This document shows, in pieces, positions 26,446 to 44,846 of a stretch of DNA of 49,795 nt (position 1 is the stretch's first letter; each line of letters begins with the position of its first letter). Origin of the DNA: an uncultured Pseudobdellovibrionaceae bacterium (GTDB taxonomy: Bacteria > Pseudomonadota > Alphaproteobacteria > Micavibrionales > Micavibrionaceae). The translations under genes were made by a program, and so were the position numbers. The notes under the pieces were generated by a model. That model was not told the origin of the DNA. It made no database searches and saw nothing but the letters and a program-made list of their open reading frames with translations. The stretch lies in NCBI GenBank assembly GCA_964409255.1, contig CAYPCP010000001.1, positions 1 to 49,795 on the forward strand, in the 5' to 3' direction.

Positions 26446-26449
26446 CCGT

Positions 26450-27301
26450 ATGCGCTCGCCATTCGCTCCGCGTTTTCTCCTGACATTGATCGCCGCTCTG
26501 GCGATCGGTGCCGTTGCATGCGCGGGCGCGGCGTCGGCGTCGCTTCTGGATGATGCGGATGATCCGCCGCCGCCATCGCTCAGCGAACTGCAATCCCTGC
26601 CCAAGGAAAATAAAAACATCGAAAGCGGCATGCCGATCGATATTCGCGGCGACGCGATGAAAGAATCCGCGCTGTCTTATGGCGCCCGTGGCGGTCTTGC
26701 GTGGCGCACGTTTGAAATTCGTCAGGAAATGGAAACCCGCGCCCGTTACATGGACAAGGTGTTCGATTTCCGCCAGCTGTTGATCCCCGCGCAATCGGGC
26801 CTGCTGATCGAACCGCCGGTAATCTCCGAACAGCTCGATGCGATGATCATCGATTCAAGCGGTCAGAACGCCGCCGTGGCGGATCAGGTGCTTAATATCG
26901 GCCGCAATGCCCGCATCGTTTCCGCGCCGCGCACATGGCGTGCCTATCTGGAACGCCAATGGGGCGATGTTTCGCCGCCGCCCGATATCCTGCGTCCTGA
27001 AAACCCGCTGGAACGCGATCAATGGAATGCCGCCGTTGCCGAAGGCTGGAAAGCCGGCGTTCAACAGGCCGATGATATTTTCCAAACCGATCTGAATAAA
27101 CTGGTTGCCGATTACCAAGGGATGATCCGGTATCGCACCCTTCTTTCCCAGGGCATGGTATCGCCGCCTTATGCGCTTCAAACCGACCGCGGTGTCACCG
27201 GCGGCGGTAGCGAAATGCGCGTTGGCGACCGTGCCTTGACCATCACCGCGCCCCCCGCCCTCAAGCCCCAGTATAATCAATGGTCGCCCGCAGACCGATA
27301 A
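26450..27301 (+). CDS. dotC: Type IVB secretion lipoprotein DotC (TraI-like)
   Basis: N-terminal signal with Cys (AIGAVAC). ALSYGARGGLAWR, LLIEPPVISE, RTWRAYL, MIRYRTLLSQGMVSPPYALQTDRGVTGGGSEMRVGDRALTITAPPAL parallels Legionella DotC (..MILYRKLLAMNMVSPPYVSHTDLGVTGDGSEIHIDDRVLRITALPEL, from memory). It starts 4 nt after the dotD stop. Confidence 0.92.
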   Translation: MRSPFAPRFLLTLIAALAIGAVACAGAASASLLDDADDPPPPSLSELQSLPKENKNIESGMPIDIRGDAMKESALSYGARGGLAWRTFEIRQEMETRARYMDKVFDFRQLLIPAQSGLLIEPPVISEQLDAMIIDSSGQNAAVADQVLNIGRNARIVSAPRTWRAYLERQWGDVSPPPDILRPENPLERDQWNAAVAEGWKAGVQQADDIFQTDLNKLVADYQGMIRYRTLLSQGMVSPPYALQTDRGVTGGGSEMRVGDRALTITAPPALKPQYNQWSPADR

Positions 27302-28449: not shown

Positions 28450-28470
28450 CCTTTTCCATCAGGGGCTTGT

Positions 28471-28770
28471 ATGGGCGTCAGAGAAGATACAGAAGAAGAA
28501 CGGGTCAACTGGCACTGGCGGAATACCATGCGCCCGGTCCGCTTTTTCGGCCTTGATGCCCGCGCCGCGTGGCCGTTTTGTGTGCTTTTGGTCTATTTCC
28601 GTCCGATTTCCCTGTTTCTGACCATCGTGATTACGGTCGTCTTCGTCCAACTGGAACGAAAAGGCCTGTCCTTCGATTCCGCTCTGCGCGCGTTCCGGAA
28701 CTGGATATTGGGCCAGCGCCGCCCGGCCTGGTTGTCCGTGCGCCGCCGCCGCATGGTCGATTACGGCTAA
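28471..28770 (+). CDS. icmT: Type IVB secretion protein IcmT (TraK-like)
   Basis: 99 aa. HWRNTMRPVRFFGLDARAAWPFCVLLVYFRPISLFLTIVITVVFVQLERKGLSFDSALRAFRNWILG parallels the IcmT/TraK pattern HWRDSAR..KFF..DA.AAFPLLLFLLHI..WTF....LER.....VFLRWLR. Confidence 0.8.
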   Translation: MGVREDTEEERVNWHWRNTMRPVRFFGLDARAAWPFCVLLVYFRPISLFLTIVITVVFVQLERKGLSFDSALRAFRNWILGQRRPAWLSVRRRRMVDYG

Positions 28771-34079: not shown

Positions 34080-34095
34080 TGCAAGGATGGTGCCA
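34080..34095 (-). promoter_or_regulatory. Sigma54 (-24/-12) promoter upstream of flgK
   Basis: The minus strand reads TGGCAC-CATCC-TTGCA, matching the TGGCAC-N5-TTGCW consensus at every position. It lies in the 103-nt gap between the stop of 34125..36095 and the flgK ATG, leaving a ~50-nt leader. Confidence 0.65.
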
Positions 34096-34124
34096 GTCCG
34101 GCGGGCGGCCCGGGTCCCGGGGCC

Positions 34125-36095
34125 TTATTTGCCCTTGGTCGGGCCGGTGCTCGAACGGTAGAGATTATTGCGGATTTCGTTCAGAACGGTGCTCTGGTGC
34201 TGGCGTATGCGGATTTCGAGGATCATGGACAATAACATCTCGCGGCGCATCATGGCCTCGTGGATGTCGCGGTCCTGCATGGATTTGATGGCCGCCATGG
34301 ATGTGCGGATACGCGCGACGTTGGCCGGCTTGTCGTACAGGTTCACGATGAAATTCGGGTCCTGATAGATTTTTTTGGTCAGGATTTCCATCTGCGCGTA
34401 ATAGCTCGGGCGGTCGCCGAGAAGCTTGAGGATCTCTTCCTCCTCCAGCCCCATTTCCTTGATCAGCGCGCGCATGTACGGCGCGGAATTGCCGGTATGA
34501 TCGGGCCCTTGCGTTTTCTGCGCGATAATGGCGGCAATGCTGTTGCGGGCGACCCCGCGCATCGCCACGACAGAGCGCAGCTTCTGGAACGGCTCGCTGA
34601 AGACTTTCAGCGTCGTGTACGATTCCGCGACGGCCGGGAACGGGCGGTGCATGAACAGGTTGTTGACCAGCGCGAAAAGATTTTCCTCGTCCTCCGTCAC
34701 TTTCCCGTCGTCGATGTCGATCTCCAGCGACAGCGGGTTGTCGAGCGTGGTGGTGTAATCGACGTCGCGGTTGGCGCGCACCGGCTTGGAGTCTTTCTGT
34801 TTGCAGAAATAATCGGCTTCGGTGCCGTTATCCTCGACGTTACAGAACACGTCGCGCAGCTGTTTCGCGCGGGATTTCAGATCTGATTTGTCGCTCTCCA
34901 GCGTGGTGCTCTCACCCGACGACAATTCCCGTTTCAGGATGCGGCGCGCAATCGCGAGGTGCGACATTTCCATCGCCTTTTCCGTGTTGGAAAGATTGCG
35001 GACCATCGTGCCGATTTCACACATCTGCACCGACGGCTGGTAATCCTTGTGCGCCTCCGCGGTTTTTTGCTGCAGCAGGCGCTGCAGCTCCAGCTGGTTC
35101 TTCGCATCGAGGAACGTGCCGATCGCCTTGACCTGATCCATCATCGCGGTCATGAGCTGGCTGGTCATGATCTGCAGCGACGCGACCCAGATCTGGCGCA
35201 ACCCCGTCGTCAGCTCGCTCAGATGGTGTTCGGTCGGCCCGCCCGGAAGGTCCCCGCCCGACACGTCCGGGTAATTATCGTAGTCGGTGTTGTACCGCCC
35301 GGCGCCCGTATCGCTCATGCCCTGGCCGCCTTCGCAGTTTTTCTGCGTGTCGTCGCCGCACTTCCCGTCCGTGCCGCCGGAATCGTTACAGGACGAATCG
35401 CCCGGCGCCACCACGCTGCAAATCGAATAGCCTTTGAAACAGCACACATACGCGCCGATCGACGTGCCGTATTTGTCCGAGGCGCCCGCGCCCGTCTTGT
35501 TGGTGTAACCGCACACCCCGTTATTTCTCTTCTCGCTGCCCGCGCCGCCAAGGTGGCCGCCGCCCAGAATACCGGACAGGGTGATGTTACAGGACTTGCC
35601 CGGCGCCTGTTTGCCGATATTCTGATGGCACCATTTGGTCTGGTTATAGAGCTTGATCATATGCTCTTTGAATGCGGCCTTTTGTGCTTCGGGATTTTTA
35701 AGGAAGTCCTGGATGGAATTGACGCCGTGATTCTTCGCCTTCTGGCACCACTGGCCGGAGAAAGACTGGTACGCGCCCGATTTCACCGGCTGGCTGCAAT
35801 ACCACCCGATTTCCTGCAGGCGTCCTTCCCCGAACTGGAAATAACCGGCGTAACCGATGTCGTTTCTCGCCTGCGGGTTGTTCGTACTTTCGCGTTTTGC
35901 TACCGCGCCCATGAATTGTTCCCACCCGCACGAGCTTGACGGCGTGCCGGTGGTTCCGCTCGGGCTTTCGGCGATGGTGCCGTCCTCGTTCTTAACGCTC
36001 GCGTGCCCGCCGCCGATCGGCATGACAAACGCGGCCGCGACAACAAGAACGGTCAAAAGGCGCAGGGCGCTATGCGTGAAACGATGCATCATCAT
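34125..36095 (-). CDS. Paralog A of the secreted Cys-cluster core family; N-terminal lysozyme/SLT-like module (tentative)
   Basis: 656 aa with signal-like MMMHRFTHSALRLLTVLVVAAAFVMPIGGGHA. AVAKRESTNNPQARNDIGYAGYFQFGEGRL is muramidase-like. Core motifs: MTSQLMTAMMDQVKAIGTFLDAKNQLELQRLLQ, AHKDYQPSVQMCEIGT, NRDVDYTTTLD, PSYYAQMEILTKKIYQDPNFIVNLYDKPANVAR, MQDRDIHEAMMRRE. Confidence 0.85.
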   Translation of the reverse strand: MMMHRFTHSALRLLTVLVVAAAFVMPIGGGHASVKNEDGTIAESPSGTTGTPSSSCGWEQFMGAVAKRESTNNPQARNDIGYAGYFQFGEGRLQEIGWYCSQPVKSGAYQSFSGQWCQKAKNHGVNSIQDFLKNPEAQKAAFKEHMIKLYNQTKWCHQNIGKQAPGKSCNITLSGILGGGHLGGAGSEKRNNGVCGYTNKTGAGASDKYGTSIGAYVCCFKGYSICSVVAPGDSSCNDSGGTDGKCGDDTQKNCEGGQGMSDTGAGRYNTDYDNYPDVSGGDLPGGPTEHHLSELTTGLRQIWVASLQIMTSQLMTAMMDQVKAIGTFLDAKNQLELQRLLQQKTAEAHKDYQPSVQMCEIGTMVRNLSNTEKAMEMSHLAIARRILKRELSSGESTTLESDKSDLKSRAKQLRDVFCNVEDNGTEADYFCKQKDSKPVRANRDVDYTTTLDNPLSLEIDIDDGKVTEDEENLFALVNNLFMHRPFPAVAESYTTLKVFSEPFQKLRSVVAMRGVARNSIAAIIAQKTQGPDHTGNSAPYMRALIKEMGLEEEEILKLLGDRPSYYAQMEILTKKIYQDPNFIVNLYDKPANVARIRTSMAAIKSMQDRDIHEAMMRREMLLSMILEIRIRQHQSTVLNEIRNNLYRSSTGPTKGK

Positions 36096-37555
36096 GGAAT
36101 CGGCCTGACCGTCCCTTCCTGATCCATACGTTCGATTTCGCTGGCCAGCGGCTCCTGAATTTTCATCAATTCCATTTCAAGCCAGACCGCCATCGTGGCT
36201 TCGGAACGCAGCATGCTGCGGTAAATGTCGCGTTTCTGCATATTGCCGATGGCGCGCATGGCCACGTTTTTACGCGCGACGTTGGCGGGCTTGTCGTACA
36301 GGTTGGTGTAGAAATTCGGGTCCTGATAGATTTTCTTGGTCAGGATATCCATCTGCGCGTAATAGCTCGGCTTGTCGGACAGCATTTCTTCGATGTCCTT
36401 GTCCGGGATGCCGATTTCTTTCAGCAGCGCTTCCATATACGGCTTCACTTCTTCGCCGCCCTTGGTGCGCATCGCGGCAATGGCGGCGAAGCTGTTCTGC
36501 GCCACCGACCGTTTCGCCGCGAGGGACCGCAGGTCCATGATCGCAAACGCGCCCGCTTCCTTCTGGTTGCCGTCATTGTCGGCGATAAAGATCTCCGGCA
36601 GCGGGAAGGGCAGGGTATGGCCGTACATGTTGGCGGCCAGAGCGAAGATGTCTTCCTCGTCCGCGCTGGCGCCGCGGTCCGTGTGCTTGGCGTCGCCCTG
36701 CGGGGTGAAATCGATTTCCAACGTATCGGCGCGGTCGATCGTGGTGGCGAAATCGACGTCCTTGTTACGGCGTTTTTTGTCGCCGCCCGCGCCGCACAGC
36801 TTGGAGAAACCCTTGGCGTTGTCGTTCGGGTCGCAGTAAACGCTCATGAATTGTTCAAGGCGGCTTTCAAGGTCGGAACCCGACCCGCTCGACAGCACGT
36901 CGGCGGAAATAAGCTGGCGCTGCAACATCCGATTTCCGATCACGATGTGGCTGAGCTGGCTGTTCTGGTCCGCGATGGCCAGGCTGCGCGTATTCGTCCC
37001 GAACATACAGACGCCTTCGCTGACCTGGTAATCCTTGTGCGCTTCGGCGTGAAGCTCCTGGAACAATGCCTGACTCTCCAGCTGGTGCTTCGCGTCGTAC
37101 AGCATGCCGATCATCGTGATGTGTTGCATCGCCGCCGCCGTCAGCTGTTCCGTCATCAACATCATGGCCGGCAGCATATGCGCTTCCCACACGATCTTCA
37201 CCAGCCATTCGCGGTGGATCAGGAATTCGTCCGTGATATACGGAATGGTGATCTTCGTCTGCTCCGCATCGGTACACGCGCAATCCTGGCCGCAGGCGGT
37301 CTGAAGCGGGCAGCAGCGGCAGCACGCGACGCACGGGCACGGGTTGCACGGGCAGTTTCCGCTGACCGTCTGGGTGTTGTCCGTGCCGATGCCGATGGTG
37401 ATCGTAATCTTCGGGCCTTCCTGCGGTTTCTCCGCGCCCGCATCCTCGGCGGCATGGGCCGACAGGCCGGCGGCGGCCAGCATCAACGCAACCGCCAGCG
37501 CGGTTAACATCTTCGCCCTGAACCCGCCCAGTCTTTCCAGCATCGCCTTCATCAT
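36092..37555 (-). CDS. Paralog B of the secreted Cys-cluster core family
   Basis: 487 aa with signal peptide ..LMLAAAGLSAHA. Cys cluster CPCNPCPCVACCRCCPLQTACGQDCAC (37274-37354). Core: LYDAKHQLESQALFQELHAEAHKDYQVSEGVCMFGT, DLRSLAAKRSVAQNSFAAI, PSYYAQMDILTKKIYQDPNFYTNLYDKPANVARK, MQKRDIYRSMLRSE. 4-nt overlaps at both ends. Confidence 0.85.
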   Translation of the reverse strand: MMKAMLERLGGFRAKMLTALAVALMLAAAGLSAHAAEDAGAEKPQEGPKITITIGIGTDNTQTVSGNCPCNPCPCVACCRCCPLQTACGQDCACTDAEQTKITIPYITDEFLIHREWLVKIVWEAHMLPAMMLMTEQLTAAAMQHITMIGMLYDAKHQLESQALFQELHAEAHKDYQVSEGVCMFGTNTRSLAIADQNSQLSHIVIGNRMLQRQLISADVLSSGSGSDLESRLEQFMSVYCDPNDNAKGFSKLCGAGGDKKRRNKDVDFATTIDRADTLEIDFTPQGDAKHTDRGASADEEDIFALAANMYGHTLPFPLPEIFIADNDGNQKEAGAFAIMDLRSLAAKRSVAQNSFAAIAAMRTKGGEEVKPYMEALLKEIGIPDKDIEEMLSDKPSYYAQMDILTKKIYQDPNFYTNLYDKPANVARKNVAMRAIGNMQKRDIYRSMLRSEATMAVWLEMELMKIQEPLASEIERMDQEGTVRPIP

Positions 37556-38922
37556 TCCAGTGGCTCCACGGTGCCTTCCTGGTCGAGGCGGCTGATTTCG
37601 TTCTGGATCTCTTCCTGACGGTCCATCAGCGACGTTTCAAGGATCACGGAAAACAGCGTTTCGCTGCGCAGAAGGCTGCGGTAGATGTCGCGCTTCTGCA
37701 TCAGGTTGACGGCCTGCATCGCCGCTTCCTTGCGCATGACGTTGGCCGGCTTGTCGTACAGCTCGGTGAAGAAGCCCGGGTGCTGGTAAATCTTCTTGGT
37801 CAGCATCTCCATCTGCGCGTTATAGCTCGGGTTGGTGCCGAGATATTTTTCAATCTCCTCGGCTTCCAGCGCGCCGTTGCTCATTTCCTTCATCGCCGCG
37901 TACAGGAACGGCGTGACATCCGGCGTGCCCTGCGCCCGCTGGCCGACGATCGCGGCGAAGCTGTTCTGCGCCACCGACCGCTTTGCCGCCAGCGCCCGGA
38001 CATCGAGAACTTTCAGCGCGCCTTCGGACGGATCCCCGTCTTGGTCGAGCAATTCGCCCGGCAGGACGGTCGGTAATGGATCGTTTGCGTAGAGGTTCGA
38101 CGCCAGCGCGAATACGTTTTCCTCGTCCTTCGTCATGGCCTTTTTGTCCGGCGTGAAATCGACGTCGAGCGTCAGCGGGAAATCCACCGACGCCGTGAAG
38201 TCCACGTCGCGGTTATACCGCGTCTTGTCCGTTCCGCCGCCCTTGCAAAGGTTCTCGAGGCCCAGGCCGTTATCCTTGGGATTACAGAAGATCGCGCGGA
38301 ATTGTTTCAGGCGGCTCCAGAAATCCGATTCATCCGACGCCGCGGTCGAAACGGTGCCGGACAACAACTGCCGTTCGTTCATGCGGTTGGCAAGGGCGAT
38401 CTGCGTAAGCGTGCCGCGGCGCTCCGCCGTCGCGATACCCTGCGTTGCGGTGCCGAATTCGCACAGGCCTTCGCTCGGCTGATAATCCCTGTGCGCTTCC
38501 GCCGTCATCATCTGGAACAGGCGCTGCGTTTCCATCTGGTGCTTGGCGTCGAGCATCGAACCGACCATCAGCACCTGCAGATTCATCGTCGCGGTCAACT
38601 GGCTGGCCATGATCTGCATCGCGGCCAGCATGCCGGGGATCGTGTGGTGGTCGCTTGAATTGCCGACGCGGTCATCCTTGAAGAAAATATCGACCATCCA
38701 CTGGCGGTGGCGGCGGAACGCCTCCGTGATGTGGTCGGTGGTGATCTTGGTCTGTTTGTTGGACGTGCATACGCACGTCTTGGCGCAGGTCTTGATCGGG
38801 TCGCAACACGCGCCGCAACCGCAACTCGCCATCGCGGGCGACGGACCGGCGACCGGCCCCACCGATACCGGCGCGGCGATCAGAACAAATGCGACGAACA
38901 GGCTGCGCAGGAAGGTCGTCAT
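37552..38922 (-). CDS. Paralog C of the secreted Cys-cluster core family (shortest, near core-only)
   Basis: 456 aa with a signal peptide. CGCGACCDPIKTCAKTCVC (38767-38823). MLDAKHQMETQRLFQMMTAEAHRDYQPSEGLCEFGT, FCNPKDNGLGLENLCK, VRALAAKRSVAQNSFAAI, PSYNAQMEMLTKKIYQHPGFFTELYDKPANVMRK, MQKRDIYRSLLRSE. Confidence 0.85.
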   Translation of the reverse strand: MTTFLRSLFVAFVLIAAPVSVGPVAGPSPAMASCGCGACCDPIKTCAKTCVCTSNKQTKITTDHITEAFRRHRQWMVDIFFKDDRVGNSSDHHTIPGMLAAMQIMASQLTATMNLQVLMVGSMLDAKHQMETQRLFQMMTAEAHRDYQPSEGLCEFGTATQGIATAERRGTLTQIALANRMNERQLLSGTVSTAASDESDFWSRLKQFRAIFCNPKDNGLGLENLCKGGGTDKTRYNRDVDFTASVDFPLTLDVDFTPDKKAMTKDEENVFALASNLYANDPLPTVLPGELLDQDGDPSEGALKVLDVRALAAKRSVAQNSFAAIVGQRAQGTPDVTPFLYAAMKEMSNGALEAEEIEKYLGTNPSYNAQMEMLTKKIYQHPGFFTELYDKPANVMRKEAAMQAVNLMQKRDIYRSLLRSETLFSVILETSLMDRQEEIQNEISRLDQEGTVEPLE

Positions 38923-41741
38923 TACGGCGTTCCTCCCTGATTCATGATTTTCAGTCCGGGCCCGCCTTCGGGCGTGATTCTGCTTTTCACTTTGGTCTGC
39001 TGTTCGGTCAGCAGGGCTTCGAGAAGCACTGAACCGATCATCTCGCTGCGCAGAAGGCTTTGGTAAATGTCGCGGTCCTGCATCATGCCGATGGCTTTAA
39101 GGGCGGCGGCCTTGCGCGCGACGTTGGCCGGCTTGTCGTACAGCTCGGTGTAGAATACCGGGTTTTCGTACGCTTTCTTGGTCAGCACTTCCATCTGCGC
39201 GAAATAGCTCGGGTTCTTGCCGACGATCAGTTCGACCTGTCCTTCCGGCACGCCCAGTTCCGCGATCATGCGCTTGAGGAACGGCGCGGATTCCTTTTCC
39301 CCGCTGATGCGCTCGCCGATGATGGACGACAGCGAGTTCGACGCGACCGACCGTTTCGCGGCAACCGCGCGCAGATCCAAATAATACGGAACGGAATCGA
39401 GCCGGATGTTTCCATCGCCGTCGGCATAGACGCTCGGTGTGCGCGTCGGCAGGACGTCATGCCCGATCAGGTTGGAAACAAGCGCGGTTACGTTCTCATA
39501 ATCCTTGCTTCGCGCCGTGCCTTCACCGCCGACACTGCCATCTTCGGCGCCGACGGAATTTTCATCGGGCGTGCCGCCGGCCTGGTCGTCATCGTCACCC
39601 GTGCCTCCGTTATCATCGCCGTTGCCGGTGCCATCGCCGTTGCCCGTGCCGCCGGTGCCCCCTGTTCCTCCCGTACCCCCGGTCCCGCCGGTACCTCCTG
39701 TGCCGCCCGTTCCACCGGTTCCGCCCGTGCTGTCGCCACCGAAAACGATGATGATCCTTGCCGTGGCGCTGCCGATCAGCGTCGTGTTCAGCGTGTACGT
39801 AAAGACGTCGTCGTGCTCCTTCAGTCCCGTGTCGATCAGGTTATAGGTGAAACTGCCCGAGGCGCGGATGGTCAGCGTTCCGTAACGGCCTTCGATGGTG
39901 ACGCCCCCTTCGGCCGGCACGTCCTTGGTGATGACCTGCTCGGTCTTATAGTCATACGCGCTGATCTGCGTGACCTTGGAATTGTAAATGTCGTACAGGT
40001 CGTTCTCCAGCGCGTTGCCGGTAACCGTCGTCTTTCCTTTCTCGATGCCGCGTATGTCGTCGACGGGCACGGGCGGCTGCGATACGGACCACGAGGATGA
40101 GGAAGAGCCGGACGCCAGCGTCAGCGCCGGATGGCGCGCGCGCGCCGCGTCGCCCAGTCCGGGCATGCGGTGCGAGCCAGTCAGGCGCGACAGCTCGCCG
40201 TCATGCCGCGCGCGTTGAACGTAACGGGTGAAGTCTTTTTGCGCGGCCGGGGCGACGGCGGCGAATTTTGTGGCCTCGTCATCGCCGTCCTGCGGCAGGA
40301 AGAACGCGCCTTTCTGGCCGGTGCCGGCGTCGAGCAGGTCGATCTCCAGCGTCAGTTTCGTCTCAATGCTGCGAATGAAATCGACGTCGCGGTTCTGGCG
40401 GTCTTTCGGCGCGCTTTTCTTGCACAGGCTCTGAAGGCCGTTGGCGTTGTCCTTGATGTTGCAGAATTTAAATTTGAACTGCGCCAGACGGCTGAGCCTG
40501 TCGGATGCAGGGCCCTGCTGCGCCTGCGTTTCGCCCGATCCCAGCATGCGCTTTAACGAATCTTCGGCGAACGCCATCTTGGCCAGATCGGCGCGGCGGC
40601 TCGACGCCAGAAGGCTGCGGGACAGCGTGCCGAATTCGCACAGCCCTTCGCTCGGCTGGAAATCCTTGTGCGCGCGCACCGACATGCGCTGGAACAGGCG
40701 CTGTGTTTCAAGCTGGTGTTTCGCGTCGAGGAAATTGCCGAACATGCGAACCTGCTCGATCCCGACGGCGGTCAGCTGGCTCGTCATCATCATCATCGCG
40801 CGCAGGATGTGCTGCTGGAAGAAGGTGAGCGCCATCCACTTGCGATGCTCTTCGAATTCGCTGGCTTCGTTCGACTTGTCGAATTCGTCGACGTGGCGGC
40901 GGATGCGTTTGTGGTCGTTGATGATCGGCTGCGTACACGGGCAACAGCAGGATGTACACCCGTCGTTGTTGTTTTGCGCGTTGACGAACGGGTCGCTCTG
41001 CGGATTGTTGGCAACGACGCCGCCCGTGCCGTTCGAATTATTGTTGTTATTGTTATTTGTGTTGTTGGTGTTCGTATTGTTCGTATTCGTTTCGGTGATG
41101 GTGTTGTTGCCGGTGGTGGCGGCATTGGTGGTGGCGTTGGCCACGGCGACCTGCCCGCCCGCGGACGCCACCAGGTTGGGCGCGACGGTGGATGCCGCCT
41201 GAACGAATTGCTGGACCGACGCCGGGTTGGTCGCCAGCGAGGTCGCCAGCGATGCGGCCGAGGCGATTTTCGCGACATTGCCGATGGCGTCGGCGATGCC
41301 GCCCGCGCCCAGCTGGCCCGCGATCGCACCCAGACCTTGTTGTATGTTGCTGTTGCCCAGAACCTTGGCGAGGTCCTGCACGTTGCTGATGTTGCCCAGC
41401 CCGCTGATCCCCGCAAGGCCCAGCGCCGTCTGCGGATTAATCGACCCGCCCATGACGCTGTCCAGAACGCCCGCCATTGCGGTCGGCGACACATTGCTGT
41501 TGCCGGTGAACGTATTGATAAGGGACGTCGCATCATTCAGGCTGATCTTGCCGCTGCCGGCGAGCGTCGAGGCCGCCTGGCCCGCGTTCATGGTGCCGTT
41601 GCCCAGATTGATGGTGATGTTAAGCCCGTTCTGCGCCATCGCGGGCGTGGCGAATGTCAGGCACGCCCCCGTCATAACGATCAATGCCGCGCGGGTCACG
41701 CGCTGCGCAAGGGTGGGGGCGGCGCGGCGTTCCTGCATCAT
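38922..41741 (-). CDS. Paralog D of the secreted Cys-cluster core family, with an N-terminal low-complexity module and a ~265-aa internal insertion (Ig/VCBS-like + GGT repeats)
   Basis: 939 aa with signal-like ..ALIVMTGACLTFATPAMA. Asn/Thr run; CTSCCCPC (40935-40958). FLDAKHQLETQRLFQRMSVRAHKDFQPSEGLCEFGT. Insertion TVTGNALENDLYD...GRYGTLTIRASGSFTYNL...DDVFTYTLN...ARIIIVF followed by (GGT)9. Then LRAVAAKRSVASNSLSSI, PSYFAQMEVLTKKAYENPVFYTELYDKPANVARK, MQDRDIYQSLLRSE. Confidence 0.85.
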   Translation of the reverse strand: MMQERRAAPTLAQRVTRAALIVMTGACLTFATPAMAQNGLNITINLGNGTMNAGQAASTLAGSGKISLNDATSLINTFTGNSNVSPTAMAGVLDSVMGGSINPQTALGLAGISGLGNISNVQDLAKVLGNSNIQQGLGAIAGQLGAGGIADAIGNVAKIASAASLATSLATNPASVQQFVQAASTVAPNLVASAGGQVAVANATTNAATTGNNTITETNTNNTNTNNTNNNNNNNSNGTGGVVANNPQSDPFVNAQNNNDGCTSCCCPCTQPIINDHKRIRRHVDEFDKSNEASEFEEHRKWMALTFFQQHILRAMMMMTSQLTAVGIEQVRMFGNFLDAKHQLETQRLFQRMSVRAHKDFQPSEGLCEFGTLSRSLLASSRRADLAKMAFAEDSLKRMLGSGETQAQQGPASDRLSRLAQFKFKFCNIKDNANGLQSLCKKSAPKDRQNRDVDFIRSIETKLTLEIDLLDAGTGQKGAFFLPQDGDDEATKFAAVAPAAQKDFTRYVQRARHDGELSRLTGSHRMPGLGDAARARHPALTLASGSSSSSWSVSQPPVPVDDIRGIEKGKTTVTGNALENDLYDIYNSKVTQISAYDYKTEQVITKDVPAEGGVTIEGRYGTLTIRASGSFTYNLIDTGLKEHDDVFTYTLNTTLIGSATARIIIVFGGDSTGGTGGTGGTGGTGGTGGTGGTGGTGGTGNGDGTGNGDDNGGTGDDDDQAGGTPDENSVGAEDGSVGGEGTARSKDYENVTALVSNLIGHDVLPTRTPSVYADGDGNIRLDSVPYYLDLRAVAAKRSVASNSLSSIIGERISGEKESAPFLKRMIAELGVPEGQVELIVGKNPSYFAQMEVLTKKAYENPVFYTELYDKPANVARKAAALKAIGMMQDRDIYQSLLRSEMIGSVLLEALLTEQQTKVKSRITPEGGPGLKIMNQGGTP
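39645..39725 (-). repeat. Nine imperfect 9-bp tandem units encoding (Gly-Gly-Thr)9 inside paralog D
   Basis: The minus strand reads GGCGGAACC GGTGGAACG GGCGGCACA GGAGGTACC GGCGGGACC GGGGGTACG GGAGGAACA GGGGGCACC GGCGGCACG. Codon usage varies between units. Confidence 0.9.
41031..41090 (-). repeat. Low-complexity AAT/AAC/ACN tract encoding an Asn/Thr run (TNTNNTNTNNTNNNNNNNSN) in paralog D
   Basis: A visibly AT-rich island (attattgttgttattgttatttgtgttgttggtgttcgtattgttcgtattcg) in an otherwise GC-rich gene. Confidence 0.8.
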
Positions 41742-43762
41742 GGGCTGCCTCCCGTCTTGATGGGCGCGCCCGTTTTCGTGATGATGGCGATTTCGCTGCT
41801 GACGGTTTCCTGCTCTTTTTCAAGCAGCGTTTCAAGGAACACCGCAAGGATCGCCTCGCCGCGCAGGAGGCTGTCGTAAATATCGCGGTCCTGCATGATC
41901 TCAAGCGCTTCCATCACGGCGATCTTGCGCTCGACGTTGGCGGGCTTGTCATACAGCTCGGTGTAGAAAACCGGGTCCTCGTAAATCTTTTTCGTCAGCA
42001 CTTCCATCTGCGCGAAATAGCTCGGCTCTTCCCCGATAAGCTTGTTGATCTCCTCGACGTCGAGGCCGAGGTCGCGGATGAACGCCTTCATGAACGGCGC
42101 GACTTCCTTGGCGCCGCGCGACTTCATCGCCGCGATCGCCGCGACGGAGTTCTGCCCGACCGACCGTTTCGCCGTCAATGCCCGCAGGTCCATATAGAAA
42201 GGATATGCGTCGGGGCGGACGTCGCCCTTGTCGTTCGCCAAAAGGGAACGGTTCATTTTTTCCGGCACGTCGTGCGCGTACAGATTGGACGACATGGCGA
42301 AAATGTCTTTTTCGTCATTCGTGTTTTCCGGCTTGGTGAAATCGACATCGAGGCTCAGCGGCACGTCGAGCGTGTTGGTGAAATCGATGTCACGGTTCTT
42401 GCGCGCGGCGGGAATGTTTTTCTTGCACAATATTTCAAGCCCGGCCTTGCCTTCCGGGCCTTCGCCGTTGTCGTTCTTGTCGCAATATTCATCAAGGAAT
42501 TGCTGCAGGCGGCTGAGCTTGTCGGAATCGCCGCCGGTCTGCGAAACGACGTCGCCGGATTTAAGCGAGCGTTTGAGCATGTGCTGCGCGAACGCGACCT
42601 TCGAAAGATCGGCGCGGCGTTCGGATGCGGCAAGGCTTTGCGACGCGGTGCCGAATTCGCACAGGCCTTCGCTCGGGTGGTAATCCTTGTGCGCTTTCGC
42701 CGTCATGTGCTGGAACAGGCGCTGCGTTTCCATCTGGTGTTTCGCGTCGAAAAACTGGCCGAACATTTCCACCTGATTGTAAGCCGCGGCGGTCATCTGC
42801 GAGGTCATGATCATGAGCGCGGGGACCATGTTCTCGATATACCATTTCGACACGAGCCACGTGCGGTACGTTTCAAACTCGTTGGTCATCAACGCGCGGA
42901 TGTTTTTATGGTCTTCGACGATCGGGCGGTGACAGTTGCAGCAGCTCGGGCACGTCTTCTCGCACATCGCGTTGGCGTTCTGGATGTTGTGCTGCGTGGA
43001 AATCTTTCCGGTCAGAAGATTGAGCGTCAGGCCGTTCAGGTTGAAGCTGAGGTTGATGTTCAGCCCCTTCATGATCGCATCCGTCAAACCTTTCAGGCCG
43101 CCCAGCGCCTGCGTGATGTTGCCGCCCAGCGCGCTGCCCAGCGCTTTGGTCAGGCTCTCCGCCAGCTTGGTGTCCTTCATGATGTCGGTCATCAGCTTCG
43201 ATGCGCTCGCGCCGCCGAGCGCCGCGCCGAGCTGCTTGGTGAATTCCTGCACGCCGCCCGATTGCAGCGCGGCCTGCAGCCCTTGCGAAATTCCCGGGAT
43301 TTTCGCGATGTCGGCGAGCTGGCCGATGTCTGTGATCTTGCCCAGGTTCGGCAGCGCGGTGAGCGCCGTCGACAGCGACGAATTCAGCTGCCCGCGCATC
43401 GCGCTGTTGATGACCTGACCGAGAGAGCCGAGGTCGGCGCCCATATTGGCCACGATATTCTTGGTAAGCGCTTCCGCCGTCGGCAGCGAGATATTGCCGC
43501 TTTCGACAAGCGCGTTCGTGAATTGCTCCGGCGTGAGTTTTCCGGCGGCGAAATTATTGACGAGCTGCTCGCCGATATTGTTGGGAAGGCCCGTGCCGAT
43601 CTTGGAGATGTCGAACGATGGCGAACCGCCTGTCGTGCCCGTGCTGCCGCCGGCATTCGCGGTCAGCGGTAACGCGGCCGCGAACAGAAGCAGGATCATG
43701 CAAAAAGCATGTCCCCATCCCCGGCGCTTGGTGGCGCCTGTTGCCCCGGACCACATTATCAT
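41738..43762 (-). CDS. Paralog E of the secreted Cys-cluster core family, with an N-terminal Gly/Leu/Ala/Asn-rich module homologous to that of D
   Basis: Track ORF is 41738..43828. Its first 22 codons are AT-rich, so I prefer ATG 43762 (MIMWSGATGATKRRGWGHAFCMILLLFAAALPLTANA); the start is uncertain. CEKTCPSCCNC (42932-42964). FFDAKHQMETQRLFQHMTAKAHKDYHPSEGLCEFGT, LRALTAKRSVGQNSVAAI, PSYFAQMEVLTKKIYEDPVFYTELYDKPANVERK, MQDRDIYDSLLRGE. Confidence 0.85.
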   Translation of the reverse strand: MIMWSGATGATKRRGWGHAFCMILLLFAAALPLTANAGGSTGTTGGSPSFDISKIGTGLPNNIGEQLVNNFAAGKLTPEQFTNALVESGNISLPTAEALTKNIVANMGADLGSLGQVINSAMRGQLNSSLSTALTALPNLGKITDIGQLADIAKIPGISQGLQAALQSGGVQEFTKQLGAALGGASASKLMTDIMKDTKLAESLTKALGSALGGNITQALGGLKGLTDAIMKGLNINLSFNLNGLTLNLLTGKISTQHNIQNANAMCEKTCPSCCNCHRPIVEDHKNIRALMTNEFETYRTWLVSKWYIENMVPALMIMTSQMTAAAYNQVEMFGQFFDAKHQMETQRLFQHMTAKAHKDYHPSEGLCEFGTASQSLAASERRADLSKVAFAQHMLKRSLKSGDVVSQTGGDSDKLSRLQQFLDEYCDKNDNGEGPEGKAGLEILCKKNIPAARKNRDIDFTNTLDVPLSLDVDFTKPENTNDEKDIFAMSSNLYAHDVPEKMNRSLLANDKGDVRPDAYPFYMDLRALTAKRSVGQNSVAAIAAMKSRGAKEVAPFMKAFIRDLGLDVEEINKLIGEEPSYFAQMEVLTKKIYEDPVFYTELYDKPANVERKIAVMEALEIMQDRDIYDSLLRGEAILAVFLETLLEKEQETVSSEIAIITKTGAPIKTGGSP

Positions 43763-43982
43763 TCTGATTTTTTTATAACTTCTCCAACTACAGAAAATTT
43801 TATCATATTCAAAAAGCAAAACGCACATTCATTTCCGCCGACGCGCGGAGAAGGGGCTTATGGAATTTGTGCGGAGCCTTTCGAATATGGTCAAATAACA
43901 ATATAAAGTGGTTTTTTACTTCGCGCATCTGATACATAATGGAATCAGATCATTTTTGTCCTGTCCGGACGATTAGGAATTC

Positions 43983-44717
43983 ATGAGCGACTCTAGCGAT
44001 AAATCTGCCAACCCGCGGAACATCCGGCCGGCGCCCCGCGGCCCGGCGGCGGGCGTGCCGAAAAAAGGCGCGAAGGTAAAGCCTGACGCCAAGGATGTCA
44101 GCTCGCTGGGCAAGGTCGTCCTGCGCAATGAATTCTACCGTGACGGGTACCGCCTGGCGCTGCGCGTCGCGGTTATCCAGTGTTTCATCATTGTCGGCTT
44201 GATTGCCGTAATGTTCTACGTGGTCAAGGTGCATCAACCGGAAAACCGTTATTTCGCAACGACCGAGGATGGCCGCCTGATCCCGATGGTGTCCCTGACC
44301 CAGCCGAACCTGTCGACCCCCGCGCTGATGTCGTGGGTGGCCCAGTCGGCGACCGAGGTCATGACCTTCGGCTTCAACGATTACCGCCGCAGGTTGCAGG
44401 AAGCCTCGCGCCATTTCACCCGCCGCGGCTGGGAAAGCTTCACCACCGCGCTTCAGCGCGCCCGCATCATCGAATCGATCGAGGAAAATTCCCAGGTCGT
44501 CACCGCCGCGCCGCGCGGCGCGCCGATCCTTCAATCCGAAGGCATCATCGGCGGGCAATATCAATGGGTCGTTCAGATCCCCATGGTTCTCACCTATCAA
44601 TCCGGGTCGAAAACACGTTCCGATTACTGGATCGTGACGCTGGTGGTGGTGCGCGTGCCGCGCCTCGAAAGCCCCAACGGTGTCGGCATCGCGCAATGGA
44701 TCGCCGCGCCGGGCTGA
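43983..44717 (+). CDS. icmL: Type IVB secretion protein IcmL/DotI (TraM-like)
   Basis: 244 aa. LRNEFYRDGYRLALRVAVIQCFIIVGLIAVMF (the FYRD.YR + TM hallmark), ...WVAQSATEVMTFGFNDYRRRLQEASRHFTRRGWESF..., ...VVRVPRLESPNGVGIAQW, colinear with Legionella IcmL as I remember it. Confidence 0.9.
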   Translation: MSDSSDKSANPRNIRPAPRGPAAGVPKKGAKVKPDAKDVSSLGKVVLRNEFYRDGYRLALRVAVIQCFIIVGLIAVMFYVVKVHQPENRYFATTEDGRLIPMVSLTQPNLSTPALMSWVAQSATEVMTFGFNDYRRRLQEASRHFTRRGWESFTTALQRARIIESIEENSQVVTAAPRGAPILQSEGIIGGQYQWVVQIPMVLTYQSGSKTRSDYWIVTLVVVRVPRLESPNGVGIAQWIAAPG

Positions 44718-44846
44718 TCGGACGCCTTTCTTGGCTGAGGGTAACCTGCGCGCAAGGCATATACAGGGCGGCTTTCCCGCGATATGGTAGGGCGGGGCAT
44801 GCAGATTCGCATTCGGCCTTTCTTTAGGTGTACGGTAATTTTCGAC

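What the first reader, a model, noticed from the sequence alone, without database searches (positions are those of the whole stretch)
34125..43828. Five tandem, translationally coupled paralogs of an unrecognised secreted Cys-cluster protein family inside the T4BSS locus
Minus-strand genes E (41738..43762), D (38922..41741), C (37552..38922), B (36092..37555) and A (34125..36095) encode proteins of 696 (track ORF from 43828), 939, 456, 487 and 656 aa.

Each has a signal-like N-terminus and a shared core of roughly 380 aa that I cannot place in any family I know:
- ..MTSQ(L/M)TA....G..LDAK(H/N)Q(L/M)E.Q.L(F/L)Q....AH(K/R)D(Y/F)(Q/H)(P/V)S(E/V)..C.(F/I)GT..
- ..FCN..DN..G....(L/F)CK......NRD(V/I)D(F/Y)..
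- ..(L/V)R(A/S)(L/V).AKRSV..NS...I.. (absent or degenerate in A)
- ..PSY(Y/F/N)AQM(E/D).LTKK.Y..P.F...LYDKPANV.R....(M/L).A....MQ.RDI(Y/H)....R.E..

LYDKPANV is identical in all five. The N-terminal modules differ: A is lysozyme-like, D and E have a related Gly/Asn/Leu-rich module, and B and C have almost none.

Gene junctions overlap: tcat at 36092-36095, 37552-37555 and 41738-41741, and TAATG at 38920-38924. This implies one coupled operon.

The array sits exactly between icmT and icmL, on the opposite strand to the Dot/Icm genes and directly upstream of flgK. It could be a novel periplasmic or extracellular T4BSS accessory or substrate family, or a flagellum-associated family. Nothing in the sequence decides between these.
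Basis: partly seen in the sequence, partly recalled or inferred. Interest (0 to 1): 0.9.

Follow-up and report, generated by a model that had tools for sequence, protein, structure and literature searches.

The report
Five tandem IcmX/TraW-like secretion-system genes
The five overlapping genes are real, but they are not a new protein family: they are very divergent copies of IcmX/TraW, the VirB5-like central-channel or tip protein of type IVB secretion systems. What is unusual is that they are multiplied 3-6 fold, with different add-on modules, in the Micavibrio group, which includes predatory bacteria.

Summary
Observation confirmed. Five minus-strand genes (34125-43762) overlap by ATGA or TAATG. 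All have Sec-type signal peptides and share a ~350-400 aa core at 41-54% identity.

Interpretation partly wrong. The core has no Pfam, NCBIfam or PDB sequence hit, but it is homologous to IncI-plasmid TraW, the counterpart of Legionella IcmX and of VirB5:
- A profile of 73 diverse TraW-like proteins matches family members end to end, up to 56 bits.
- That profile hit 167 of 284 family ORFs and none of about 2,066 other ORFs.
- hhalign gives 98.7% probability, E 2e-16; a reversed control gives 0.1%.
- Two AlphaFold models both have IcmX in the Legionella DotA-IcmX structure (9ngy) as the only credible Foldseek hit (prob 0.97 and 0.99).

The array of 3-6 paralogs is conserved in position-specific order next to icmL in 74 Micavibrio-like loci.

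The adjacent flgK-flgL has its own conserved sigma-54 promoter (57 of 58 loci), so the flagellar link looks positional only.

Best reading: a diversified set of IcmX-like channel or tip subunits. D carries an adhesin-type insertion and A possibly a lysozyme-like module.

Verdict: a new variant of a known kind, of moderate interest.

The parts
41738..43762 (-). Paralog E. IcmX/TraW-like core plus a ~270 aa Gly/Asn/Leu-rich N-terminal module. The longest ORF runs to 43828; the likely start is the ATG at 43762.
   Evidence: ORF. Family HMM covers residues 277-693. TraW-superfamily profile scores 20.7 bits. N-terminal module related to that of D, E 4e-8. Closest relatives sit at array positions 1-2 in other loci.
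38922..41741 (-). Paralog D. IcmX/TraW-like core split by a ~300 aa insertion in the middle (loop-rich) domain, with an N-terminal module like that of E.
   Evidence: ORF. Alignment shows the insertion. Family HMM covers residues 258-925. TraW profile scores only 3.7 bits because the core is split. Family membership rests on 45-54% identity to E and C.
39756..40094 (-). Adhesin-type (BapA/LapF-like) domain inside the D insertion, D residues ~550-662.
   Evidence: NCBIfam NF045619 adhes_GNV_Cterm, E 5.6e-14, residues 550-662. This is a single domain, below the cut-off set for the whole protein.
39614..39730 (.). DNA tandem repeat (periods 18, 27 and 36) encoding the (Gly-Gly-Thr)n linker of D.
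   Evidence: Tandem Repeats Finder. Translation.
37552..38922 (-). Paralog C. Core only: signal peptide, Cys cluster, long N-terminal helices, loop-rich middle domain, C-terminal helices.
   Evidence: TraW-superfamily profile scores 36.3 bits and aligns residues 13-432 to profile positions 10-399. AF2 models have pLDDT 69 and 79. Foldseek top hit is IcmX, 9ngy_AP1.
36092..37555 (-). Paralog B. Core only, with a longer Cys-rich N-terminal linker.
   Evidence: ORF. TraW profile scores 21.8 bits, residues 135-456. Closest to position-4 genes of other 5-gene arrays.
34125..36095 (-). Paralog A. Always the last gene of the array. It lacks the Cys cluster and first helix of the core and carries a ~250 aa Cys-rich N-terminal domain instead.
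   Evidence: ORF. TraW profile scores 16.9 bits. In other loci the last gene always starts at about family-HMM position 95 and has a 220-330 aa N-terminal extension. Closest to last-position genes elsewhere.
35406..35933 (-). N-terminal domain of A. Possibly lysozyme-like or transglycosylase-like (motif RES...GYxGYFQF). Assignment weak.
   Evidence: NCBIfam AggPromo_Cterm, E 0.0044, residues 63-101. PF06737 Transglycosylase-like hit in 1 of 35 orthologous domains, E 0.0065. No PDB sequence hit. Only one outside homolog, P0390, an RTX-type protein labelled 'serralysin'.
34107..34124 (.). GC-rich hairpin immediately after the stop codon of A.
   Evidence: Terminator-like scan. Sequence. On the minus strand it lacks a U-tract, so termination is not shown.
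34081..34095 (-). Sigma-54-type -24/-12 promoter element TGGCACCATCCTTGC, upstream of flgK. It marks the boundary of the array's transcription unit.
   Evidence: Pattern found here and in the equivalent gap of 57 of 58 loci. Those 57 are most of the 65 occurrences in 2.6 Mb searched.
43983..44717 (+). icmL/dotI, transcribed divergently from E. It is followed by icmK/dotH (44784-46247), a TrbI-family gene in the icmE/dotG position (46237-47676) and a possible icmG/dotF (47748-49496).
   Evidence: Pfam T4BSS_DotI_IcmL 2e-65, T4BSS_DotH_IcmK 7e-83, TrbI 5.5e-10. The fourth gene has no specific Pfam hit.
25915..28770 (+). dotD (25915-26445), dotC/traI (26450-27301), dotB/traJ ATPase (27280-28449) and icmT (28471-28770): the other arm of the same T4BSS locus.
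   Evidence: Pfam DotD 2e-34, T4SS_TraI 4e-80 and T2SSE 6e-38. The icmT ORF matches the gene carrying PF28014 IcmT_2 in L001.

Best explanation
The five genes encode paralogous, highly divergent members of the IcmX/TraW family. This is the VirB5-class subunit of type IVB (Dot/Icm, IncI-type) secretion systems. They belong to a chromosomal T4BSS of a Micavibrio-like alphaproteobacterium.

**Shown here.**
- Homology to TraW, by reciprocal profile evidence with controls.
- Best structural match to Legionella IcmX.
- Sec-type signal peptides.
- Overlapping genes consistent with translational coupling.
- Conserved placement beside icmL.
- Ancient orthology between genes at the same position in different arrays.

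**Inferred from what is known of IcmX and VirB5** (bioRxiv 10.1101/2025.06.23.660953; PMC12857230).
- Each protein is exported to the periplasm by Sec.
- It oligomerises, presumably as pentamers, through its long N- and C-terminal helices.
[quoted passage not shown] It forms the distal part of the channel, which is pushed outward on contact with a target cell.

**Inferred for the paralog set.** Multiplication into 3-6 maintained paralogs with different surface modules points to a set of alternative or mixed channel and tip subunits. These would diversify what the machine touches or does at the target surface.
- E and D carry a Gly/Asn/Leu-rich N-terminal module.
- D carries a Bap-type adhesin domain inserted in the exposed middle domain.
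- A carries a possibly lysozyme-like N-terminal domain that replaces the first helix.

Bartonella Trw, with its several variable VirB5 copies, is the precedent.

flgK-flgL downstream is a separate, sigma-54-driven flagellar unit.
For: **Homology to TraW, forward direction.**
- An HMM of 73 full-length, diverse TraW-like representatives was built from the hits. None of them is a family member: the family HMM scores them at most 9.8 bits.
- That HMM matches family ORFs over their whole length, up to 56.2 bits, E 5e-17. It scores window C at 36.3 bits, B 21.8, E 20.7 and A 16.9.
- The alignment is collinear. It pairs the family's conserved motifs with TraW's conserved positions:
  - ETQRL...AHKDY.PSE..C
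  - (F/Y)C..DN......C
  - N.D(V/I)
  - EE..FAL..NL
  - AKRSVA
  - PSY.AQME.LTKK.YQ.P.F...LYDKPANV.R

**Specificity.** Among 2,350 ORFs of at least 100 aa from the window and 76 loci, the profile hit 167 at E <= 1e-3. All 167 are family members; none lies outside.

**Profile against profile.**
- hhalign of A2 against A4 gives probability 97.9%, E 4e-13, over 311 columns.
- With 267 family cores it gives 98.7%, E 2.3e-16. A reversed-sequence control gives 0.1%.

**Reciprocal direction.** The family HMM ranks 9 TraW-like proteins above every one of about 2,066 decoy ORFs, best E 1.6e-7.

**Cysteine spacing.** IncI TraW has C108, C167 and C181. Paralog C has C154, C213 and C226. The gaps are 59 and 14 against 59 and 13 residues.

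**Structure.**
- Both AF2 models of C are all-alpha, with long N- and C-terminal helices around a loop-rich middle domain. This is the layout described for IcmX.
- Foldseek against the PDB puts IcmX (9ngy_AP1) first both times: E 0.057, prob 0.97 and E 0.0083, prob 0.99.

**Sequence link to IcmX itself.** A combined family plus TraW profile reaches IcmX at E 0.13. The match is collinear with the AKRSV and LYDKPANV motifs.

**Equivalence in the literature.** VirB5 = TrwJ = TraW (R64) = IcmX is tabulated in PMC12624023.

**Genomic context.**
- Where the flanks are long enough, nearly all of the 74 loci read icmG?-icmE-icmK-icmL | array | flgK-flgL | STN-domain gene-icmT-dotB-dotC-dotD.
- Every locus with enough sequence holds 3-6 paralogs, and the A-type gene is always last.
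- Each window paralog is closer to the gene at the same position in other arrays (55-57% identity) than to its own neighbours (41-54%).
Against: - No direct significant sequence match to Legionella IcmX. The TraW profile alone misses it and the combined profile reaches only E 0.13.
- Foldseek TM-scores are low (0.23-0.29). The structural match is local and topological, not a good rigid superposition.
- Pfam's own TraW model (PF28212) is not among the precomputed Pfam hits for any listed family member.
- D on its own scores only 3.7 bits against the TraW profile.
- DotA/TraY, the expected partner, lies outside the window and outside all fetched flanks. Its presence in these genomes was not verified.
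- Whether a second, more canonical TraW/IcmX gene exists elsewhere in these genomes was not checked.
- Known IcmX and TraW are single-copy. Nothing here shows that all five proteins assemble into the machine.
- An N-terminal domain ahead of, or replacing, the N-terminal helix (A, D, E) might not fit the helix bundle that IcmX forms.
- Expression, oligomeric state and localisation are untested.
Confidence: 0.8

Rival explanations
1. The proteins descend from IcmX/TraW but no longer act as machine subunits. Most or all of the paralogs would be secreted cargo: adhesins, cell-wall hydrolases or toxins released through Sec and then the T4BSS or another route. This would resemble the way IcmX itself is shed into culture supernatant.
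For: - The variable modules look like effectors or adhesins. D has a Bap-type domain.
- The only outside homolog of the A N-terminal domain is an RTX-type protein labelled 'serralysin'.
- IcmX is released into the medium in a Dot/Icm-dependent way.
- Five copies are more than a single structural role needs.
Against: - The helical core, including the C-terminal helices that build the IcmX oligomer, is the most conserved part in all paralogs.
- The paralogs keep fixed positions and orthology across the order, as expected for stoichiometric parts.
- No other IcmX/TraW candidate was found among the 2,350 ORFs of the locus regions. At least one paralog should therefore fill the structural role.
Confidence: 0.12
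2. The array is a flagellum-associated family co-expressed with flgK-flgL, for example periplasmic or hook-junction accessory proteins or a FlgJ-like rod/PG-hydrolase set. On this reading it merely sits inside the T4BSS locus.
For: - The array lies directly upstream of flgK-flgL on the same strand in most loci.
- In L069 the array and flgKL lie together with no icm genes within 10 kb.
- A has a possibly lysozyme-like domain in the position where flgJ sits in enterobacterial flg operons.
- There are weak Foldseek hits to hook-filament junction chains.
Against: - The family is homologous to TraW/IcmX.
- flgK has its own conserved sigma-54 promoter after a hairpin.
- In L059 and L060 the array stays with icmL while flgKL is absent or relocated.
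- Sec signal peptides do not fit export through the flagellar type III pathway.
- The Foldseek flagellar hits have probability at most 0.08.
- M. aeruginosavorus ARL-13 is listed with a single flgK (GMV2433) and a separate FlgJ-like gene (GMV1724), so flgK here is simply the flagellar gene.
Confidence: 0.03
3. The match to TraW/IcmX is a false positive driven by long amphipathic helices and conserved cysteines. On this reading the family really is new and of unknown fold.
For: - Foldseek TM-scores are low.
- There is no Pfam, NCBIfam or PDB sequence hit.
- hhalign against a shallow TraW alignment was not significant.
Against: - The match is end-to-end and collinear, not a coiled-coil patch.
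- No off-family ORF among about 2,066 was hit.
- The reversed-profile control fails at 0.1% probability.
- The reciprocal search ranks TraW-like proteins above all decoys.
- Cysteine spacing is conserved.
- The genomic context is a T4BSS in which no other TraW/IcmX candidate was found in the regions examined.
Confidence: 0.05

Closest known systems
TraW of IncI1-type conjugative plasmids (R64, UniProt Q9WW97; Pfam PF28212)
   Same: - Homologous by profile and by profile-profile comparison over about 310-390 positions.
- N-terminal export signal.
- Three conserved cysteines with the same spacing.
- A conserved C-terminal motif: SxxE..xxEVxRRYxNxxW in TraW against PSYxAQMExLTKKxYQxPxF in the family.
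- Encoded in a T4BSS locus.
   Different: - TraW is single-copy, about 400 aa, and labelled a lipoprotein by one database source.
- It lies next to traX and traY (dotA).
- The window proteins share only about 11-17% identity with TraW-like proteins and are not recognised by the Pfam model.
- They have signal-peptidase-I-type signals.
- They carry an extra N-terminal Cys cluster.
- They occur as 3-6 tandem paralogs next to icmL, with added modules.
IcmX of the Legionella/Coxiella Dot/Icm system (PDB 9ngy; pentamer on DotA)
   Same: - Best and only credible structural match for two models.
- Similar size: 456-487 aa for C and B against 466 aa.
- Same layout: signal peptide, N-terminal helices, loop-rich middle domain, C-terminal helices.
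- A weak collinear sequence match at the two C-terminal motifs.
- The same kind of secretion system.
   Different: - No significant direct sequence similarity, and TM-scores of only 0.23-0.29.
- IcmX is single-copy and encoded with icmW, icmV and dotA, from my own knowledge of the Legionella locus.
- Here there are five paralogs, three of them with large extra modules.
- The organism's relatives in the Micavibrio group include predators of bacteria, not an intracellular pathogen of eukaryotes.
VirB5/TrwJ, and in particular the multiplied, sequence-variable trwJ (virB5) copies of the Bartonella Trw T4SS
   Same: - The same structural role class: a pentameric stalk or tip subunit sitting on VirB6 or DotA.
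- Bartonella Trw is the precedent for tandem amplification of this subunit to vary the surface-exposed end (PMC12857230).
   Different: - Trw is a type IVA system, and its VirB5 proteins are small.
- Its copies are proposed to serve antigenic and host-range variation.
- Here the paralogs are old: orthologs at the same array position are closer than in-genome paralogs.
- The paralogs differ in architecture, which points to division of labour rather than simple variation.

Membership tests
IcmX/TraW (VirB5-class subunit of T4BSS) | Detectable sequence homology to TraW-family proteins | tested here: met
   - The TraW-superfamily HMM hits 167 of 284 family ORFs and no other ORF; best score 56 bits, window C 36 bits.
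- hhalign gives 97.9-98.7% probability; the reversed control gives 0.1%.
- The reciprocal search is positive.
IcmX/TraW (VirB5-class subunit of T4BSS) | Recognised by the curated family model (Pfam PF28212 TraW) | tested here: not met
   - The precomputed Pfam column is '-' for all 120 listed family members, while every listed TraW homolog carries PF28212.
- The local Pfam copy lacks this model, so only the precomputed result is available.
- This places the family outside the current curated boundary. It does not argue against homology.
IcmX/TraW (VirB5-class subunit of T4BSS) | IcmX-like fold: long N- and C-terminal helices flanking an extended loop-rich domain | tested here: inconclusive
   - The AF2 secondary structure fits the description of IcmX.
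- IcmX (9ngy_AP1) is the top Foldseek hit twice, prob 0.97 and 0.99, E 0.057 and 0.0083.
- TM-scores are only 0.23-0.29 and rmsd is 10-20 A.
IcmX/TraW (VirB5-class subunit of T4BSS) | Direct sequence similarity to Legionella IcmX | tested here: inconclusive
   The family profile and the TraW profile each find no hit. The combined profile reaches E 0.13, 14.5 bits, and is collinear with two conserved motifs.
IcmX/TraW (VirB5-class subunit of T4BSS) | Sec-dependent export to the periplasm (cleavable N-terminal signal) | tested here: met
   All five N-termini have a basic stretch, a hydrophobic stretch and an AxA-type motif, read from the sequences. The signal region aligns with the signal region of the TraW profile. 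No dedicated signal-peptide predictor was available.
IcmX/TraW (VirB5-class subunit of T4BSS) | Encoded within a T4BSS gene cluster | tested here: met
   The array is flanked by icmL, icmK and icmE on one side and by icmT, dotB, dotC and dotD on the other, in the window and in nearly all 74 loci.
IcmX/TraW (VirB5-class subunit of T4BSS) | [quoted passage not shown] | not testable with these tools
   DotA/TraY was not found in the window or in the 10-kb flanks, and whole genomes could not be fetched. Oligomeric state needs experiment or multimer modelling.
Flagellar hook-associated or FlgJ-type proteins | Fold or sequence similarity to FlgK, FlgL or FlgJ; export by the flagellar T3SS; co-transcription with flg genes | tested here: not met
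   - There are no Pfam flagellar hits.
- Foldseek hits to the hook-junction complex have probability at most 0.08.
- The Sec signal peptides do not fit flagellar T3SS export.
- flgK has its own sigma-54 promoter in 57 of 58 loci.
Lysozyme-like or lytic-transglycosylase domain (VirB1-like role), for the N-terminus of A only | Significant match to a GH23, Rpf or transglycosylase-like model, with a catalytic Glu motif | tested here: inconclusive
   - An RES...GYxGYFQF motif is present.
- NCBIfam AggPromo_Cterm matches at E 0.0044.
- PF06737 matches 1 of 35 orthologous domains at E 0.0065.
- The PDB profile search finds nothing.
Bap/LapF-type adhesin repeat, for the insertion in D only | Match to an adhesin Ig-like repeat model | tested here: met
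   NF045619 matches at E 5.6e-14 over D residues 550-662. This is similarity to one domain only; the whole-protein cut-off of 180 bits is not reached, as expected for a single domain.

The most novel reading that the evidence does not exclude
The Micavibrio-group T4BSS may be a predation device, and its distal end may be built from a fixed set of specialised IcmX-like subunits.
- The 3-5 paralogs would co-assemble into a hetero-oligomeric channel tip, possibly hetero-pentameric, or would swap in as alternative tips.
- The tip would carry its own adhesin (D) and its own cell-wall hydrolase (A).
- The machine could then bind prey bacteria and breach their envelope.

This would be the first T4BSS with a multi-subunit, enzyme-bearing VirB5-class tip, and a candidate mechanism for how these predators attach to and tap their prey.
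Probability: 0.15. Interest if true: 0.8.

Novelty: new variant of a known kind. Interest (0 to 1): 0.5.

Why it matters
**For annotation.** More than a thousand database proteins, all labelled 'hypothetical', can now be named as IcmX/TraW-family (VirB5-class) T4BSS subunits. This extends the known sequence range of a family that current models miss.

**For T4SS biology.**
- IcmX was only recently shown to form the pentameric distal part of the Dot/Icm channel.
- A lineage that keeps 3-6 ancient paralogs with different exposed modules is a natural experiment on which part of IcmX is structural and which part meets the target.
- It is also a type IVB parallel to the multiplied VirB5 genes of Bartonella Trw.

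**For predator biology.**
- The locus is a chromosomal Dot/Icm-like system, conserved in gene order in all 74 Micavibrio-like loci fetched.
- The 2011 genome paper on M. aeruginosavorus reported no evidence for a type IV secretion system.
- No paper in the searchable library links Micavibrio with a T4BSS.
- The system and its diversified tip proteins are therefore testable candidates for prey contact.

Tried and rejected
**Direct library searches of the five proteins found nothing useful.**
- Pfam and NCBIfam gave nothing, apart from the D adhesin domain and weak hits for A.
- PDB sequence searches with the 5-sequence and 36-sequence profiles gave nothing.
- tblastn against 72,556 plasmids found no match.

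**Early comparisons with TraW were not significant.**
- hhalign against a single TraW sequence gave 4.6% probability, and against a shallow alignment (at least 63% identity) 0.8%.
- Only the ETQRL...C motif aligned. This was kept as a lead and resolved after collecting diverse TraW relatives.

**Looking for an annotated IcmX.**
- The accession AP005147 (R64) is not in the plasmid collection.
- The Piscirickettsia Dot/Icm plasmid has no annotated IcmX to borrow.
- The TraW-only profile does not reach Legionella IcmX in the PDB.
- None of the TraW-like representatives looked up is named IcmX.

**The N-terminal domain of A.**
- The PDB profile search found nothing.
- Pfam on 35 orthologous domains gave one weak hit.
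- The homolog search returned a single protein.

**Expression data.** I looked in the M. aeruginosavorus RNA-seq supplement for the genes around flgK (GMV2433). The stored table is truncated and lacks those rows.

**Clustering.** UPGMA clustering of 267 cores did not separate clean orthogroups. Nearest-neighbour analysis did.

**DotA.** tblastn with IncI TraY and Piscirickettsia DotA found nothing in the window or the loci. It found only IcmB/TraU and IcmJ/TraT homologs beyond icmG.

**Considered and rejected.** A flagellar role, and a spurious coiled-coil match. See the rival explanations.

Full report
**1.

The window carries five consecutive minus-strand ORFs:
- A: 34125-36095, 656 aa.
- B: 36092-37555, 487 aa.
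- C: 37552-38922, 456 aa.
- D: 38922-41741, 939 aa.
- E: 41738-43828. The ATG at 43762 is the likely start, because it gives an N-terminus of the signal-peptide kind.

The junctions are ATGA overlaps at E/D, C/B and B/A, and TAATG at D/C. Shine-Dalgarno-like GGAGG or GGAAGG sequences lie upstream.

The five proteins share a core of about 350-400 residues:
- Identity to C is 40-50%; identity over the shared columns is 41-54%.
- LYDKPANV is invariant, along with several other blocks and three invariant cysteines.

All five begin with a basic and then hydrophobic segment ending in an AxA-type motif, as expected for Sec signal peptides.

The N-terminal modules of D and E are related to each other (26% identity over 160 aa, E 4e-8).

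D has a large insertion. It contains a Bap/LapF-type adhesin domain (NCBIfam NF045619, E 5.6e-14) and a (Gly-Gly-Thr)n stretch encoded by a DNA tandem repeat at 39614-39730.

**2. Standard libraries do not recognise the core**

- Pfam and NCBIfam gave nothing for the core.
- PDB sequence searches with 5- and 36-sequence profiles gave nothing.
- No plasmid in PLSDB encodes a relative detectable by tblastn.
- The protein database holds more than 1,186 relatives. None carries an informative name ('hypothetical protein' or no name) and none has a precomputed Pfam domain. Some come from Micavibrio MAGs.

**3. Genomic context**

A scan of one genome for each of 185,579 species found 249 relatives. 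All of the 74 loci kept are in Micavibrio or Micavibrio-like alphaproteobacterial MAGs.

Where the flanks are long enough, nearly every locus has the same map:

icmG?-icmE-icmK-icmL (one strand) | 3-6 family genes, then flgK-flgL (other strand) | STN-domain gene-icmT-dotB-dotC-dotD

The window has the same arrangement:
- dotD at 25915-26445.
- dotC/traI at 26450-27301.
- dotB at 27280-28449.
- icmT at 28471-28770.
- icmL at 43983-44717.
- icmK at 44784-46247.
- A TrbI-family gene in the icmE position at 46237-47676.

The left part of the window holds housekeeping genes (secB, fxsA, a Tim44-like gene, mltA, mscL). The system is therefore chromosomal.

Every locus with enough sequence has at least three paralogs. 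The gene next to flgK is always of the A type. It lacks the Cys cluster and first helix, starting at about family-HMM position 95, and has a 220-330 aa N-terminal domain.

Each window paralog is most similar to the gene at the same array position in other 5-gene arrays (55-57% identity). It is less similar to its own neighbours (41-54%). The paralogs are therefore old and individually maintained, not recent duplicates.

**4. What the family is**

The first AlphaFold model of C (36-sequence alignment, pLDDT 69) is all-helical. It has long N- and C-terminal helices around a loop-rich middle region.

Its top PDB match by Foldseek was a chain of the Legionella DotA-IcmX protochannel, 9ngy_AP1 (E 0.057, prob 0.97). 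A later search confirmed that this chain is IcmX.

The published description of IcmX has the same layout: signal peptide, conserved N-terminal helix, extended domain at residues 90-290, and C-terminal helices. IcmX forms a pentamer on top of DotA and is VirB5-like (bioRxiv 10.1101/2025.06.23.660953).

I then took TraW, the IncI-plasmid counterpart of IcmX, from an annotated IncI plasmid (L003:28476-29678). The equivalence VirB5 = TrwJ = TraW (R64) = IcmX comes from the table in PMC12624023.

Against one TraW sequence, or a shallow TraW alignment, hhalign was not significant. It did align ETQRL...A(R/H)K..(F/Y).(V/P)..(S/E)..C. The three conserved cysteines also have the same spacing: 59 and 14 residues in TraW, 59 and 13 in the family.

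To obtain diversity I searched 1.84 billion representative proteins with the TraW profile. This gave 176 hits at E <= 1e-3. I kept the 73 full-length ones as alignment A4. None of these is a member of the family under test: the family HMM scores them at most 9.8 bits.

This diverse TraW profile gave the following:
- It matches the family end to end. For window C, profile positions 10-399 align to residues 13-432.
- Scores reach 56 bits (E 5e-17 in that 284-sequence search). Window C scores 36.3 bits, B 21.8, E 20.7, A 16.9 and D 3.7; D's core is split by its insertion.
- Every conserved family block falls on a conserved TraW position.

Controls:
- Among all 2,350 ORFs of at least 100 aa from the window and the loci, the profile hit 167 at E <= 1e-3. 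All are family members; none lies outside.
- hhalign of A2 against A4 gives 97.9% probability, E 4e-13, over 311 columns.
- With 267 family cores it gives 98.7%, E 2.3e-16. The reversed A4 gives 0.1%.
- In the reciprocal search, the family HMM ranks nine TraW-like proteins above every one of about 2,066 decoy ORFs.

A second model of C from a 123-sequence alignment (pLDDT 79.2) again has IcmX as its top Foldseek hit (E 0.0083, prob 0.99). No other hit exceeds probability 0.13.

A combined family plus TraW profile reaches the IcmX sequence itself only at E 0.13. That match is collinear with the AKRSV and LYDKPANV motifs.

I conclude that the family is a very divergent branch of IcmX/TraW. The link to TraW is statistically solid. 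The link to Legionella IcmX rests on structure, on the published equivalence, and on a sub-threshold collinear sequence match.

**5. The flagellar neighbours**

flgK (31571-34021 from its ATG) and flgL (30416-31540) have normal flagellar domains.

Between the stop of A and flgK lie two features:
- A GC-rich hairpin at 34107-34124.
- A sigma-54-type -24/-12 element, TGGCACCATCCTTGC, at 34095-34081.

The same element, TGGCA[CT]-N5-TTGC, occupies the equivalent gap in 57 of 58 loci. Those 57 sites account for most of the 65 occurrences in 2.6 Mb searched. flgK-flgL is therefore its own flagellar-type transcription unit.

Rearranged loci point both ways:
- In L059 the array stays next to icmL while flgKL is absent, and in L060 it stays there while flgKL is moved.
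- In L069 the array and flgKL lie together away from any icm gene.

The M. aeruginosavorus ARL-13 genome paper lists a single flgK (GMV2433), located away from the main flagellar clusters. This fits the idea that the flgK here is the ordinary flagellar gene. Whether GMV2433 itself lies in a T4BSS locus was not checked.

Together with the homology result, the flagellar association looks positional only.

**6. How it most likely works**

Shown:
- Homology to TraW.
- IcmX-like predicted architecture.
- Sec-type signals.
- Overlapping genes.
- Membership of the T4BSS locus.
- Ancient, position-specific paralogy.

Inferred from IcmX and VirB5 biology:
- The proteins are exported to the periplasm and oligomerise through their terminal helices.
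- They sit on the DotA/TraY platform as the distal part of the central channel.
- That part is extruded toward the target cell on activation.

Inferred for the paralog set: the paralogs provide alternative or mixed distal subunits with different exposed modules.
- E and D carry the Gly/Asn/Leu-rich module.
- D carries a Bap-type adhesin domain inserted in the exposed middle domain.
- A carries a Cys-rich domain with a weak lysozyme or transglycosylase signature, which replaces the first helix.

The closest precedent is the Bartonella Trw system, with several variable VirB5 copies (PMC12857230).

**7. What remains open**

- DotA was not seen. It lies beyond the window and beyond the fetched flanks.
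- I could not check for a second TraW/IcmX gene elsewhere in these genomes.
- Oligomeric state, expression and localisation are untested.
- The hydrolase assignment for A is weak.

**8. Novelty and score**

What remains new:
- The family lies outside current curated models.
- It is multiplied into a conserved 3-6-gene array with distinct modules.
- It belongs to a chromosomal Dot/Icm-like system in the group that includes the predator Micavibrio. The 2011 ARL-13 genome paper reported no evidence for a type IV system, and the searchable literature does not link Micavibrio with a T4BSS.

I rate it a new variant of a known kind, interest 0.5.

The most novel reading not excluded is a hetero-oligomeric IcmX tip, bearing an adhesin and a hydrolase, used for prey contact. 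I give it about 15% probability; it would be of high interest if true.

Noticed in passing
window 34081-34095 (minus strand), and the A-flgK gap of loci L005-L077: A sigma-54-type -24/-12 promoter element (TGGCACCATCCTTGC) lies about 60 nt upstream of the flgK ATG. It is conserved in 57 of 58 Micavibrio-like loci. A sigma-54 activator gene lies at 18017-19066 (minus strand) in the same window.
   Followed up: yes
window 25915-30408 and 43983-49496; loci L001-L078: This is a chromosomal Dot/Icm- or IncI-like T4BSS, conserved in gene order in all 74 Micavibrio-like loci fetched. The 2011 M. aeruginosavorus ARL-13 genome paper states there is no evidence for a type IV secretion system. No paper in the searchable library links Micavibrio with a T4BSS.
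   Followed up: partly
window 30416-34021: flgK-flgL, apparently the ordinary flagellar hook-associated genes, are embedded in the T4BSS locus in nearly all of the loci, away from other flagellar genes. The ARL-13 paper lists only one flgK. The FlgK here is large (816 aa from its ATG), with a long middle insertion. Why this placement is conserved is unexplained.
   Followed up: partly
window 28800-30408: Next to icmT lies a 385 aa Pro/Ala/Gln-rich protein ending in an STN (secretin/TonB N-terminal) domain. It is conserved in most loci. It is followed by a 152 aa ORF with a PilS-type (IncI thin-pilus) pilin match, E 2e-6. The pilin-like ORF was not among the called genes of L001 or L002.
   Followed up: no
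window 23223-25303: A DsbC-like thiol:disulfide isomerase (23223-24071) and a 372 aa protein of unknown function (24185-25303) sit at the edge of the T4BSS locus. In L042 both sit directly after flgL instead. From my own knowledge, IncI TrbB is DsbC-like. Such an enzyme could serve the Cys-rich IcmX paralogs.
   Followed up: no
window 6063-11829: A 1,510 aa protein with BNR/sortilin and RCC1-like beta-propeller repeats is followed by a 440 aa protein ending in a Peptidase_S74 domain (the intramolecular chaperone of tail-fibre and endosialidase proteins). These look like fibre or surface-recognition proteins.
   Followed up: no
window 39614-39730: A tandem DNA repeat (periods 18, 27 and 36) inside gene D encodes (Gly-Gly-Thr)n. 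It is a possible site of length variation by slippage.
   Followed up: no
L060:9240-10543: One array member in this locus is split into 251 aa and 164 aa fragments, probably a pseudogene or a sequencing frameshift. In the same locus flgL-flgK lies on the far side of icmG.
   Followed up: no
window 35256-35990 (A N-terminal domain): The only database homolog found for the N-terminal domain of A is P0390, a 322 aa protein labelled 'serralysin' with RTX calcium-binding repeats (35% identity, E 1.5e-16). This hints that the module also occurs on type-I-secreted proteins.
   Followed up: no
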